This document shows positions 12,169-13,397 of a stretch of DNA of 24,000 bases, piece after piece. The DNA is from an endosymbiont of Acanthamoeba sp. UWC8. GTDB lineage: Bacteria > Pseudomonadota > Alphaproteobacteria > Rickettsiales > Midichloriaceae. A program made the translations under genes and the position numbers. The notes beneath the pieces were generated by a model. The model saw only the letters and a list, made by a program, of their open reading frames with translations. It did no database searches and was not told the origin of the DNA. The stretch is taken from contig NZ_CP004403.1 in assembly GCF_000730245.1 (NCBI RefSeq), positions 1,528,517 to 1,552,516 of the forward strand. Reading direction: 5' to 3'. Position 1 is the stretch's first letter. Every line of letters starts with the position of its first letter.

Positions 12169-13059
12169 ATGCATGGCAGCAAAAGAGATATAAATGATAT
12201 TCCTCCGAAAAGTAGAAGGTTGGATTCAATAGGGGCTCTAATAGAAGGAGCTAACCCGTGTGGTGCGGCTTATTTTGACGGAAGAACATTATTGCTTGCT
12301 ACTAATAATAATATTGAATCAGAGCTGATAAGAGATATTAAGAGATTGCTTACTTATATAAGCGTAAGTTCGGAATTGCAGTATAGTGATAGAGAAAAGC
12401 CTGATTATTATGAGTGGAAAAATGAAGTTGTTCAAAACATAGATGATATAAAAGAGAAATACCGCCGTAGTTTTGAAAGTAAAGGTAGGTATTATAGGCA
12501 ATTTTCTGATGCATTAGAAAAAGTAACAAACTCAATAATACTTGCTTATTCAAACCCTAGTGATGAAAGAGCGTTTACCACAGGTTTTGTAAGAGCATTA
12601 GTCGAACGTAGATATGCCTTTATTGAAGGAAAGCAGAATGTGCATGCAGAATTAAAAATCATTCAACATCTTATGGAAGAGAAAAGAATAGGAAGAAGAG
12701 AAGCTGCTGAAGAGTCGATTTATATAGGAGTATCAAAGCGATGTTGCTTAAAATGTGAAAAGATGATTGAAGCTATTAATGAAGCAGCCGAAGAGATGGG
12801 GTTTAGTGCAATAGAGGAACTTATAAGCATAAGGGGTATACATAGACAAATTTTTCCTGCTACTATCCCGGATTTTATTGATTATAATAATAACATATTA
12901 GAAGAAGGATTTAGAAGGAATATTAGACGAAAATTTCTGGCAAAAATGGAAGTAGATAGCCTAAGCAAAGCATTTGCAATGAAGGGAGAGAGAAGAGTTG
13001 ACGGTAGAATACAAGTACATGAAAGATCGCCACACCTGCGTATAGGTTTAAAGAGGTAG
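12169..13059 (+). CDS. OTT_1508-like deaminase-superfamily protein (predicted nucleic-acid/nucleotide deaminase toxin or effector)
   Basis: 296-aa ORF with the zinc-deaminase signature VHAELKII ... IYIGVSKRCCLKCEKM (HAE ... CxxC), followed by IRGIHRQIFPATIP. This is the pattern I associate with the OTT_1508-like family. An in-frame stop at 12133 prevents any 5' extension. Confidence 0.75.
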   Translation: MHGSKRDINDIPPKSRRLDSIGALIEGANPCGAAYFDGRTLLLATNNNIESELIRDIKRLLTYISVSSELQYSDREKPDYYEWKNEVVQNIDDIKEKYRRSFESKGRYYRQFSDALEKVTNSIILAYSNPSDERAFTTGFVRALVERRYAFIEGKQNVHAELKIIQHLMEEKRIGRREAAEESIYIGVSKRCCLKCEKMIEAINEAAEEMGFSAIEELISIRGIHRQIFPATIPDFIDYNNNILEEGFRRNIRRKFLAKMEVDSLSKAFAMKGERRVDGRIQVHERSPHLRIGLKR

Positions 13060-13397
13060 AGGCGCCTGAGATACTAAGAGAAGTACCTGAGGTAGCAAAA
13101 ACAGAAGAAAGTGTTAGCTCTTCAAGCTATATTAGGGCTATACCGGAAGAAAGTGAAAAAGAAAAAGAAAAAGAAAAAGAAAAAGAAAAAGAAAAAGAAA
13201 AAGAAAAAGATAAGCCTATAGGAAATAAGAAAAGAAAGGGTAGAAATGAAGAAAGTGAAGAATTTAATGATGAGAAAACAGATAGAATAGGTAGACCAGC
13301 CAACCATGCAAAGAATAAAGAAGGTCACGTTGCTCAAATTAGACGATCTAGAATGGATAAAGGGAAGCAAAAAGACGACGGTAGATCTATTGGATAA
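13023..13397 (+). other. ATG-less open -1 frame continuing past the deaminase stop (possible C-terminal extension via frameshift, or a decayed 3' part of the gene)
   Basis: My own translation of the frame starting at 13023: KIATPAYRFKEVEAPEILREVPEVAKTEESVSSSSYIRAIPEES(EK)9DKPIGNKKRKGRNEESEEFNDEKTDRIGRPANHAKNKEGHVAQIRRSRMDKGKQKDDGRSIG, with a stop at 13395-13397. The only in-frame ATG is at 13353. The frame overlaps the deaminase ORF end, where TTTAAAG (13047-13053) lies in X_XXY_YYZ register. Confidence 0.4.
13155..13208 (+). repeat. perfect hexanucleotide microsatellite (GAAAAA)x9
   Basis: Counted directly: nine uninterrupted GAAAAA units. They encode (EK)9 in the open -1 frame and the F18 run of the spurious minus-strand ORF. 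Confidence 0.97.

What the first reader, a model, noticed from the sequence alone, without database searches (positions are those of the whole stretch)
13023..13397. Canonical -1 slippery heptamer U_UUA_AAG just before the deaminase stop, with ~115 further codons open in the -1 frame
- Register: in the deaminase frame the last codons are GGT TTA AAG AGG TAG. This places TTTAAAG (13047-13053) in exact X_XXY_YYZ register, 3 nt before the stop at 13057-13059.
- The -1 frame: it reads TTT AAA GAG and stays open to 13395-13397, with no usable ATG of its own.
- Predicted product: a ~410-aa fusion ending ...RIGLK-EVEAPEILREVPEVAKTEE...(EK)9...NKKRKGR...RRSRMDKGKQKDD.
- Lys-codon slippage on A_AAG is efficient in bacteria.
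- The basic KKRK cluster looks like a eukaryotic monopartite nuclear-localisation signal, which would suit a host-nucleus-directed deaminase.
- The alternative is a 1-nt deletion, meaning gene decay.
- I could not find a convincing downstream stimulatory hairpin or pseudoknot.
Basis: partly seen in the sequence, partly recalled or inferred. Interest (0 to 1): 0.75.

Follow-up and report, generated by a model that had tools for sequence, protein, structure and literature searches.

The report
Frameshift-truncated deaminase gene, incidental slippery site
A deaminase effector gene of an amoeba endosymbiont has lost one base just upstream of the "slippery" site, cutting off its disordered tail; the site is most likely a coincidence of that deletion, although some rescue by ribosome slippage cannot be excluded.

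Summary
T_TTA_AAG (13047-13053) is in slip register, TAG follows at 13057, and the -1 frame is open from 13023 to 13394.

The window comes from the 454-sequenced genome of the Acanthamoeba UWC8 endosymbiont (Midichloriaceae). The gene is an OTT_1508-type deaminase.

- **Homologues:** every homologue examined across the junction encodes domain plus tail as one ORF, including the closest (51% identity, followed by the same ankyrin gene). None keeps the heptamer or the stop.
- **Position of the lesion:** frame-aware alignments put the missing base at 13030-13032. That is inside the family motif Q-V-H-x-R-S-x-S-P and 15-17 nt upstream of the heptamer. TTT AAA are former Phe-Lys codons pushed into slip register by the deletion.
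- **Sister genome:** in Ca. Jidaibacter the syntenic copy is deleted and a second copy is frameshifted elsewhere.

Best reading: a single-base deletion that truncates a disordered tail. It may be real or a 454 short-homopolymer undercall. It is not an evolved recoding signal.

Incidental or compensatory -1 slippage is not excluded.

The NLS claim is no better than composition predicts.

The parts
12169..13059 (+). Annotated 296-aa deaminase ORF (I862_07350), 0 frame, ending RIGLKR-TAG
   Evidence: 100% identical to P0001 from the endosymbiont of Acanthamoeba sp. UWC8. Pfam PF14441 OTT_1508_deam, E 6.4e-11, 42.5 bits against a cut-off of 27; the AlphaFold model is folded over residues about 17-273.
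12643..12756 (+). Intact catalytic motifs: H159-A-E161, G187-V-S-K190, and C192/C193-x-x-C196
   Evidence: these are invariant columns of alignment A1. The GxxK-before-CxxC signature of the clade is described in PMC3239186.
13023..13056 (+). The 34-nt interval in which both the 0 and -1 frames are open; any frame change must happen here
   Evidence: -1 frame stop TGA at 13020 and 0 frame stop TAG at 13057.
13030..13032 (+). Inferred site of the missing base. It is the third position of a CCN codon inside the family motif Q-V-H-x-R-S-x-S-P (restored reading ...HERSP[T/S]PAYRFKEVEAP...)
   Evidence: tblastn frame-1 HSPs of the L001 and L002 proteins end at 13029, and frame-3 HSPs start at 13029-13032. 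DNA alignments place the 1-nt gap next to CACCTGC; the motif is present in more than 10 homologues.
13047..13053 (+). T_TTA_AAG heptamer. In the ancestral (-1) frame it is TTT AAA G, the Phe-Lys codons that align to CTT AAA G (Leu-Lys) in L001
   Evidence: Chance frequency.
13057..13059 (+). TAG stop of the shifted (0) frame; not conserved in any homologue
13062..13096 (+). Imperfect hairpin: 12 bp, two 1x1 mismatches and one bulge, 6-nt loop, dG -12.6 kcal/mol, starting 8 nt after the heptamer. It is built from a 7-codon tandem duplication (EAPEILR / EVPEVAK)
   Evidence: z -4.0 for 42 nt and -2.8 for 57 nt; z -0.56 for 87 nt; the 45-nt segment downstream of the heptamer is in the top 1.5% of such segments and ranks 6th among 89 in-register heptamers. 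L001 has no equivalent (z +1.0).
13053..13397 (+). Former C-terminal tail in the -1 frame: 114 codons plus TAA. It is Glu/Lys/Ser-rich and predicted disordered
   Evidence: homologous to the tails of L001 and L042; 13216-13394 is 88.8% identical to the Jidaibacter remnant in L039; pLDDT below 50 from residue 274 onward.
13147..13210 (+). (AAGAAA) x 10.7 hexanucleotide repeat encoding (EK)9
   Evidence: The homology block shared with Jidaibacter L039 begins just after it, at 13216.
13536..14471 (+). Ankyrin-repeat gene, the conserved downstream partner of the deaminase. A promoter-like site lies at 13460-13488
   Evidence: Ank families, E 4e-28; the same gene follows the deaminase in L001, L039, L042, L002 and L004; promoter-like site matching 10 of 12 positions.

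Best explanation
The deaminase gene carries a real single-base deletion at 13030-13032, at the end of its conserved domain (motif Q-V-H-x-R-S-x-S-P).

- **Consequence:** ribosomes read eight or nine out-of-frame codons (HLRIGLKR) and terminate at TAG 13057. The product is a 296-aa protein with the whole folded catalytic domain but without the roughly 115-aa disordered Glu/Lys-rich tail that all relatives have.
- **The tail:** 13053-13394 is that orphaned tail. It is still open because the lesion is recent and the sequence is T-poor.
- **The heptamer:** TTTAAAG is the ancestral Phe-Lys codon pair (TTT AAA G). It falls into X_XXY_YYZ register only because of the upstream deletion, so it is not an evolved recoding signal.
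- **Shown versus inferred:** that the frames differ by one base at that position relative to homologues is shown. That the base is missing in the organism rather than only in the assembly, and that slippage is negligible, are inferred.
For: 1. **Homologues are continuous.** All homologues examined across the junction are single ORFs, with tails of at least about 30 aa and mostly 100-250 aa after the motif. None stops where this gene does.
2. **Closest relative.** It is 51% identical and followed by the same ankyrin gene. It reads CAC CGT AGG TCA AGA TCA CCT GCA GAA ATT CTT AAA GGG straight through.
3. **Position of the frame change.**
   - tblastn with four homologous proteins switches from frame 1 to frame 3 at 13029/13032.
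   - Pairwise and three-way DNA alignments put the 1-nt gap beside CACCTGC.
   - The -1 frame peptide (T)PAYRFKEVEAP aligns to SPAEILKGVKSP, SPAGRYHGVESP and SPPDMFGGIESP.
4. **No conservation of the signal.** L001 and L042 lack the heptamer in register and the stop, and L001 (the only one folded) has no equivalent hairpin.
5. **The family decays in the sister lineage.** In Ca. Jidaibacter acanthamoeba (JSWE) the syntenic locus has a 1.32-kb deletion that removes the deaminase. A second copy is frameshifted inside the catalytic domain.
6. **No sign of purifying selection on the tail.** Omega is 0.72, from 5 synonymous and 15 non-synonymous differences.
7. **The open tail is compatible with neutrality.** P(no stop) is 0.36 at 5% neutral divergence.
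8. **A bare heptamer does little.** Heptamers without stimulators gave only 2-10 times a 0.055% background in E. coli (PMC4066793).
9. **The heptamer is common here.** In-register slippery heptamers are frequent in this AT-rich genome.
Against: - The heptamer is of the efficient X_XXA_AAG class, with only about 1.3% chance expectation.
- It is followed after 8 nt by a hairpin whose downstream segment folds as well as only 1.5% of windows do. The joint coincidence is small.
- The catalytic motifs and the 114-codon tail are both fully intact. That fits continued use as well as recency.
- The genome is a 20x 454 assembly (PMC4125780), so the missing base may not be real.
- Only one moderately close orthologue exists, so the position of the lesion rests on a short conserved motif.
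Confidence: 0.5

Rival explanations
1. Compensatory or incidental -1 ribosomal frameshifting. The deletion is real, but a useful fraction of ribosomes slip at U_UUA_AAG, helped by the hairpin at 13062-13096 and the adjacent stop. That restores the ancestral frame and makes a 409-aa protein differing from the ancestral one in only about 6 residues (xPAYRF to HLRIGL), alongside the 296-aa tail-less form.
For: - The heptamer is in exact register and belongs to the high-efficiency set in E. coli (PMC4066793).
- The hairpin has an 8-nt spacer and dG -12.6, with z -4.0 and -2.8. The downstream segment is in the top 1.5% of windows and ranks 6th of 89 heptamers.
- The 0-frame stop lies one codon after the heptamer.
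- The tail ORF and the catalytic motifs are intact.
- Corrective frameshifting on indels is a recognised class (PMC5009743).
Against: - Nothing is conserved. L001 and L042 have no heptamer in register and no stop, and L001 has no equivalent hairpin.
- TTTAAAG and the hairpin both have trivial coding origins, namely Phe-Lys codons and a 7-codon duplication.
- The 87-nt fold is not significant.
- There is no SD-like element 10-14 nt upstream.
- T_TTA_AAG is not avoided in this genome's genes: 6 in slip register against 6 as TTT AAA G.
- Slippage on A_AAG depends on having a sole tRNA-Lys(UUU), which is unverified for this organism.
- The slip product would lose the conserved S-P of the motif.
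- The gene is evidently dispensable in the sister genome.
Confidence: 0.22
2. Assembly or sequencing artefact. The organism's gene is an intact ORF of about 410 codons. The 454/Newbler consensus under-called a short homopolymer (CCC read as CC at 13030-13031, or AA read as A at 13032).
For: - The genome was sequenced only with 454 GS-FLX at 20x, with Sanger used only for gaps (PMC4125780). Homopolymer-length miscalls are the typical 454 error (my own knowledge).
- The inferred missing base is the third position of CCN next to A, so both candidate restorations lengthen a homopolymer.
- The catalytic motifs and the tail are otherwise perfect.
- No independent assembly of this organism is in the databases searched.
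Against: - The run is only 2-3 bases long, where consensus errors at 20x are rare (my own knowledge).
- The ten A5 runs of the (AAGAAA)n repeat just downstream are all in frame.
- I found no other split gene among the roughly 24 ORFs of this 24-kb window. The 14817/16003 pair looks like an ordinary overlapping pair with its own SD and ATG.
- Relatives show real lesions in this family.
Confidence: 0.2
3. An evolved, conserved programmed -1 frameshift that sets a fixed ratio of tail-less to tailed, nucleus-targeted deaminase.
For: Heptamer register, a stop 3 nt later and the long open -1 frame. An NLS-like KKRK is present in the tail.
Against: - None of the homologues inspected across the junction uses two frames.
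- The frame junction lies 15-17 nt upstream of the heptamer.
- L001 and L042 have no heptamer in register and no stop, and L001 has no equivalent hairpin.
- The KKRK-type motif is expected from composition alone in 76% of shuffles.
Confidence: 0.03

Closest known systems
OTT_1508-like deaminase toxins/effectors of intracellular bacteria (Pfam PF14441; Iyer et al. 2011, PMC3239186)
   Same: - The Pfam hit is above the cut-off.
- HAE and CxxC zinc/catalytic motifs are present, with GxxK before CxxC.
- It occurs without a classical immunity gene in endosymbionts of eukaryotes, as described for Orientia, Rickettsia, Wolbachia and Amoebophilus.
   Different: - This subfamily has a long N-terminal helical region, a Q-V-H-x-R-S-x-S-P motif and a disordered charged tail.
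- It is always followed by an ankyrin gene.
- The UWC8 copy is truncated by a frameshift.
E. coli dnaX -1 programmed frameshift (A_AAA_AAG, upstream SD, downstream stem-loop)
   Same: An X_XXA_AAG heptamer with Lys AAG in the A site, a stem-loop a few nt downstream, and a 0-frame or -1-frame stop close by (for dnaX; here).
   Different: - dnaX is conserved and has an SD-like stimulator and a stronger hairpin. Its shift truncates the product.
- Here nothing is conserved, there is no SD, the hairpin is imperfect, and the shift would extend the product.
- dnaX relies on E. coli's sole tRNA-Lys, which is unverified here.
IS3/IS911 orfA-orfB -1 frameshifting
   Same: A heptamer near the end of the upstream ORF followed by a downstream structure gives a fusion protein (PMC4066793).
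   Different: IS signals are conserved across family members and sit in mobile elements. Here the two frames are a single ORF in every relative examined.
Corrective / 'savior-indel' frameshifting on mutant alleles (e.g. HSV thymidine kinase G-run; review PMC5009743)
   Same: A lineage-specific indel is partly compensated by low-level slippage nearby.
   Different: Those cases are experimentally shown and have a selective rationale. Here there is no expression evidence.
Split or frameshifted genes (pseudogenisation) in Rickettsiales genomes
   Same: A single-base lesion in a non-essential effector gene, with independent lesions in the sister genome (a 1.32-kb deletion and a frameshift).
   Different: The lesion is very late in the gene. 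The whole folded domain is still made, so the product may remain active rather than being a dead gene.

Membership tests
Programmed -1 ribosomal frameshift signal | Slippery X_XXY_YYZ heptamer in the 0-frame register inside the two-frame overlap | tested here: met
   T_TTA_AAG at 13047-13053. It is of the efficient class in E. coli. Chance expectation is 10-12% for any heptamer and about 1.3% for the X_XXA_AAG class.
Programmed -1 ribosomal frameshift signal | Stimulatory RNA structure 5-9 nt downstream | tested here: inconclusive
   Hairpin at 13062-13096 with an 8-nt spacer and dG -12.6. z is -4.0 (42 nt) and -2.8 (57 nt), but -0.56 for 87 nt. The downstream segment is in the top 1.5% of windows. 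The hairpin is imperfect, and L001, the only homologue folded, has no equivalent.
Programmed -1 ribosomal frameshift signal | Upstream SD-like stimulator 10-14 nt before the heptamer (bacterial type) | tested here: not met
   The upstream sequence is CCACACCTGCGTATAGG. The only AGG lies directly against the heptamer.
Programmed -1 ribosomal frameshift signal | Two-frame arrangement, heptamer and stop conserved in orthologues | tested here: not met
   L001, L042, L004, L002 and more than 10 others are continuous ORFs. L001 has CTT AAA G in frame and L042 has TAC CAT G.
Programmed -1 ribosomal frameshift signal | The frame junction implied by homology coincides with the heptamer | tested here: not met
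   The junction is at 13029-13032, which is 15-17 nt upstream.
Programmed -1 ribosomal frameshift signal | Trans-frame protein detected, or reporter efficiency measured | not testable with these tools
   No expression or proteomic data are available.
Programmed -1 ribosomal frameshift signal | Shift-prone decoding of AAG (sole tRNA-Lys UUU) | not tested
In the window's ORFs AAG is 27% of Lys codons, 152 against 407 AAA.
Frameshift-disrupted gene (truncated allele / early pseudogene) | Homologues encode both parts in one frame | tested here: met
Frameshift-disrupted gene (truncated allele / early pseudogene) | The lesion is real in the organism's DNA | not testable with these tools
   The only assembly is 454 at 20x. 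No second assembly was found.
Frameshift-disrupted gene (truncated allele / early pseudogene) | Relaxed selection or loss in related lineages | tested here: met
   In Jidaibacter one copy is deleted and one is frameshifted. Tail omega is 0.72, which is indistinguishable from neutral on 20 differences.
OTT_1508-like deaminase (PF14441) | Profile match above the curated cut-off | tested here: met
   42.5 bits against a cut-off of 27, E 6.4e-11.
OTT_1508-like deaminase (PF14441) | H-x-E and C-x-x-C motifs, with GxxK before CxxC | tested here: met
   H159, A160, E161, G187, S189, K190, C192, C193 and C196 are invariant in A1. The signature is described in PMC3239186.
OTT_1508-like deaminase (PF14441) | Deaminase activity and its substrate | not testable with these tools
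   No biochemical data.
Classical monopartite NLS in the tail | K-K/R-x-K/R cluster present beyond what composition predicts | tested here: not met
   One match in UWC8, while 76% of shuffled tails have at least one. Across 8 homologous tails only 1 exceeds shuffles at P below 0.05 for this pattern.

The most novel reading that the evidence does not exclude
A lineage-specific 'rescue' recoding event. After a 1-nt deletion in a secreted deaminase effector of a Midichloriaceae amoeba symbiont, ribosomes slip -1 at a fortuitous U_UUA_AAG plus hairpin 15 nt downstream. The cell then makes both a tail-less, possibly retained, deaminase and a full-length form carrying the tail, which may be a secretion or targeting signal. 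This would be a natural example of an indel and a pre-existing slippery site together creating a new two-product gene.
Probability: 0.2. Interest if true: 0.55.

Novelty: already known. Interest (0 to 1): 0.25.

Why it matters
If the main reading holds, the finding is ordinary. It is a late frameshift in a dispensable effector gene of a reduced endosymbiont genome, or a 454 consensus error. The practical value is a corrected annotation: the real gene spans 12169-13397.

It also shows how an upstream deletion automatically turns any XXX-YYY codon pair into a "canonical" slippery heptamer. That is a useful caution for sequence-only scans.

Only the minority reading would be of moderate interest to the recoding field. 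That reading is slippage plus hairpin rescuing the tail. It would also bear on how a host-directed deaminase is targeted.

Tried and rejected
- **Closer orthologues.** The genome-contig scan and the metagenome-contig scan found nothing closer than the 51% contig WPCJ01299377. The phage and plasmid collections gave no match. There is no independent assembly of the UWC8 symbiont.
- **Selection test on the tail.** Only the Jidaibacter remnant is alignable at the DNA level. Omega is 0.72 on 20 differences and is similar in the wrong frames, so the test is uninformative.
- **Independent initiation of the tail.** Rejected. There is no start codon until 15 codons before the stop.
- **Transcriptional slippage.** Rejected, from my own knowledge of its requirements. 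There is no A/T run longer than 5 before the stop, and the A5 runs lie downstream of it.
- **Terminator or promoter between 13059 and 13397.** None was found. The first promoter-like site is after the tail stop.
- **NLS enrichment.** Not above composition.
- **454 error at the TTT/AAA of the heptamer itself.** Rejected, because it would leave the out-of-frame HLRIG in place of the conserved SP-A motif.
- **A second split gene nearby (14817/16003).** This is an ordinary overlapping pair with GAGGAGG and ATG.
- **tRNA-Lys inventory.** Not obtainable; there are no tRNA genes in the window.
- **Identity of assembly GCA_009771425.** Not found in the literature library.
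Full report
**1. What is in the sequence**

The + strand ORF 12169-13059 (296 aa) ends GGT TTA AAG AGG TAG. TTTAAAG at 13047-13053 is therefore in exact X_XXY_YYZ register, with the stop at 13057-13059.

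The -1 frame has a TGA at 13020, is open from 13023 to 13394, and stops at TAA 13395-13397. After a slip it would add 114 codons (EVEAPEILREV...(EK)9...NKKRKGR...GRSIG), giving a 409-aa product.

The same frame carries 44 stops in the roughly 285 codons upstream. Over 13057-13397 the 0 frame has 5 stops and the +1 frame has 21. So the -1 frame is clearly the coding frame of the downstream stretch.

It has no start codon of its own until 15 codons before its end. Any change of frame must occur within the 34 nt from 13023 to 13056.

**2. Source and gene family**

The 296-aa protein is 100% identical to I862_07350 of the endosymbiont of Acanthamoeba sp. UWC8. This is a Midichloriaceae (Rickettsiales) genome of 1,615,277 bp. 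It was sequenced only with 454 GS-FLX at 20x and assembled with Newbler (PMC4125780).

The protein matches Pfam PF14441, OTT_1508-like deaminase (42.5 bits against a cut-off of 27). It keeps H159-A-E161, G187-x-x-K190 and C193-x-x-C196, the signature described for this clade of toxin/effector deaminases of intracellular bacteria (PMC3239186).

An AlphaFold model built on a shallow 5-sequence alignment has mean pLDDT 60.6. It is confident over residues about 17-273 and below pLDDT 50 from 274 to 409. The 0-frame product therefore contains the whole predicted folded domain, and the -1 region is a disordered tail.

The surrounding genes are as follows:
- Upstream: polysaccharide biosynthesis genes, an MFS transporter and an EptA-like gene.
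- Downstream: an ankyrin gene, two unknown genes, a MazF-type toxin with a small upstream ORF (possibly its antitoxin), and a phage-like block.

**3. Relatives are single ORFs**

A word-indexed search found 5 homologues and an exhaustive search found 215.

The closest is P0002 (425 aa, 51% identity). It lies on contig WPCJ01299377 and is followed by the same ankyrin gene. It reads straight through the junction and has a homologous tail...QVHRRSRSPAEILKGVKSPKPREIL...ESEKGKEK...HSKRKKS....

Every other homologue inspected is also continuous, with at least about 30 and mostly 100-250 low-complexity residues after the conserved domain. None stops where the UWC8 gene stops.

No closer orthologue exists in the genome, metagenome, phage or plasmid collections.

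**4. Where the frames actually join**

The family has a conserved motif at the end of the domain, Q-[VLI]-H-x-[RK]-S-x-S-P. Examples are QVHRRSRSPA (L001), QIHRRSSSPA (L042), QVHERSKSPP (L004), QLHRKSNSPP (L002) and QLHRKSPSPI (P0009).

UWC8 gives QVHERSP in the 0 frame and then HLRIGLKR*. The -1 frame over the same bases gives (T)PAYRFKEVEAP. This aligns to SPAEILKGVKSP, SPAGRYHGVESP and SPPDMFGGIESP.

Three lines of evidence locate the junction:
- The DNA alignments put a single 1-nt gap next to CACCTGC. UWC8 reads TCG-CCACACCTGCG, against TCAAGATCACCTGCA and TCATCTTCACCGGCT.
- tblastn with the L001 and L002 proteins ends the frame-1 match at 13029. With the L001 and L042 proteins it starts the frame-3 match at 13029-13032.
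- The alternative is to keep the 0 frame down to the heptamer. By my own count on the codon listing, that matches 7 of 24 nt over that stretch, against 14 of 20 in the shifted register.

The missing base is therefore the third position of a CCN codon at 13030-13032, which is 15-17 nt upstream of the heptamer. The restored reading is ...HERSP[T/S]PAYRFKEVEAP...

In the ancestral frame the 'heptamer' is simply TTT AAA G (Phe-Lys), matching CTT AAA G (Leu-Lys) in L001. A 1-nt deletion upstream automatically places any XXX-YYY codon pair in slip register.

**5. How surprising is the heptamer?**

In the ORFs of this 33.7%-GC window, 93 of 7196 codon positions carry an in-register XXXYYYZ. T_TTA_AAG occurs 6 times.

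XXX-YYY codon pairs occupy 1.27% of true-frame positions. That gives about a 10% chance of one within the 8 codons between lesion and stop, and 1.3% for an XXX-AAA-G pair.

T_TTA_AAG is not avoided relative to TTT AAA G (6 against 6).

**6. Evidence that keeps frameshifting alive**

- U_UUA_AAG is among the most efficient heptamers in E. coli. However, heptamers without stimulators reach only 2-10 times a 0.055% background, and high levels need a downstream structure (PMC4066793).
It has 12 bp, two mismatches, one bulge and dG -12.6 kcal/mol, and it starts 8 nt after the heptamer.
- Its z-score is -4.0 for the 42-nt piece and -2.8 for 57 nt, but -0.56 for 87 nt.
- The 45-nt segment downstream of the heptamer folds as well as only 1.5% of all such segments in the window. 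It ranks 6th among the 89 in-register heptamers.
- The hairpin arises from a 7-codon tandem duplication (EAPEILR / EVPEVAK) that contains the palindrome AGGCGCCT. L001 has no equivalent (z +1.0).
- No SD-like element lies 10-14 nt upstream.
- Slippage on A_AAG depends on a sole tRNA-Lys(UUU) (PMC5009743). I could not check this for the organism.

Mechanistically, then, some slippage is plausible. It would yield a protein differing from the ancestral one in about six residues. But nothing indicates that it was selected.

**7. The family decays in the sister genome**

The comparison genome is Ca. Jidaibacter acanthamoeba UWC36 (JSWE).

- **Syntenic locus L039.** It matches the window from 13216 through the rest of the tail, the spacer, the whole ankyrin gene and 143 nt beyond, at 80% nt identity. 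A 37-nt stretch corresponding to window 11859-11895 abuts it directly.
  - About 1.32 kb carrying the deaminase and the first half of the tail has therefore been deleted.
  - The 59-codon remnant is still open and 88.8% identical.
  - Its omega is 0.72 (5 synonymous and 15 non-synonymous differences), indistinguishable from neutrality and from the wrong frames.
- **Second copy L042.** It is split by a frameshift inside the catalytic domain into ORFs of 53 and 200 aa, but it is continuous across the junction discussed here.

An open 114-codon tail is expected for some time without selection. Only 5.9% of single substitutions create a stop, so P(no stop) is 0.67 at 2% neutral divergence and 0.36 at 5%.

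**8. Real lesion or 454 artefact?**

Both candidate restorations lengthen a short homopolymer: CCC in place of CC, or CCAA in place of CCA. That is the 454 error type.

Two points argue against an artefact, although it cannot be excluded without reads:
- Runs of 2-3 bases rarely give consensus errors at 20x (my own knowledge).
- The ten A5 runs just downstream are all in frame, and I found no other split gene in the window.

**9. The NLS claim**

K[KR]x[KR] occurs once in the UWC8 tail, while 76% of composition-preserving shuffles contain at least one. Across eight homologous tails only one is enriched at P below 0.05 for this pattern. The basic cluster is what a Lys/Arg-rich tail gives by chance, so nuclear targeting remains pure speculation.

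A weak K-G-x-G-R-S-like motif at the extreme C termini hints at some conserved role, which could be secretion. I did not test this.

**10. Verdict**

| Reading | Probability |
|---|---|
| Real 1-nt deletion that truncates the tail; heptamer incidental | 0.5 |
| Same deletion with meaningful compensatory -1 slippage | 0.22 |
| 454 assembly error; gene intact | 0.2 |
| Evolved, conserved programmed frameshift with NLS tail | 0.03 |

The finding is a correct observation with an interpretation that the orthologue comparison does not support. Interest is low to moderate. Resequencing, a tRNA-Lys inventory and a reporter assay would settle it.

Noticed in passing
window 12169-14471; L001 1260-3543; L042 252-1975; L002 3596-6090; L004 464-2469: The deaminase is followed by an ankyrin-repeat gene in every close relative: UWC8, the WPCJ contig, both Jidaibacter loci, and two loci of Holosporaceae bacterium 'Namur'. 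This is a conserved two-gene module, possibly a toxin/immunity or co-effector pair.
   Followed up: partly
L039 5981-7319 versus window 11859-11895 plus 13216-14614: Ca. Jidaibacter has a 1.32-kb deletion that removes the deaminase. The 59-codon tail remnant is still open and is less diverged (88.8% nt identity, no gaps) than the adjacent spacer (81.3%) or the ankyrin gene (82.5%). This is unexplained.
   Followed up: partly
L042 252-978 (Jidaibacter contig JSWE01000153): A second deaminase copy is split by a frameshift inside the catalytic domain (53-aa and 200-aa ORFs). The same split is seen in three assemblies.
   Followed up: partly
window 13147-13210: (AAGAAA) x 10.7 hexanucleotide repeat encoding (EK)9. 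The homology block shared with Jidaibacter begins right after it, which suggests a recombination or deletion breakpoint.
   Followed up: no
window 13059-13100: A 7-codon tandem duplication (GAG GCG CCT GAG ATA CTA AGA / GAA GTA CCT GAG GTA GCA AAA, encoding EAPEILR / EVPEVAK) contains the palindrome AGGCGCCT. It is the source of the hairpin.
   Followed up: partly
window 9947-10141 versus L002 8826-9020: The first 65 aa of the EptA-like (sulfatase/phosphoethanolamine transferase) ORF are 86% identical to a Holosporaceae 'Namur' contig. That contig also carries a deaminase-ankyrin pair whose deaminase is only 32% identical. This suggests lateral transfer or misclassification.
   Followed up: no
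window 13350-13394 and the C termini of L001, L004 and L042 tails: The extreme C termini share a loose K-G-x(1-4)-G-R-S pattern (DKGKQKDDGRSIG, EKGFNGRSH, EKGKGREK). It could be a secretion or targeting signal.
   Followed up: no
window 16938-17533 and 18017-23933: A MazF/PemK toxin gene with a small upstream ORF, followed by a phage-like block with AAA_24 and AAA_25 proteins. The deaminase-ankyrin module sits at the edge of a probable mobile region.
   Followed up: no
window 11576-12168: An unusually long (593 nt) non-coding gap lies upstream of the deaminase. 37 nt of it (11859-11895) are conserved at 92% with Jidaibacter.
   Followed up: no
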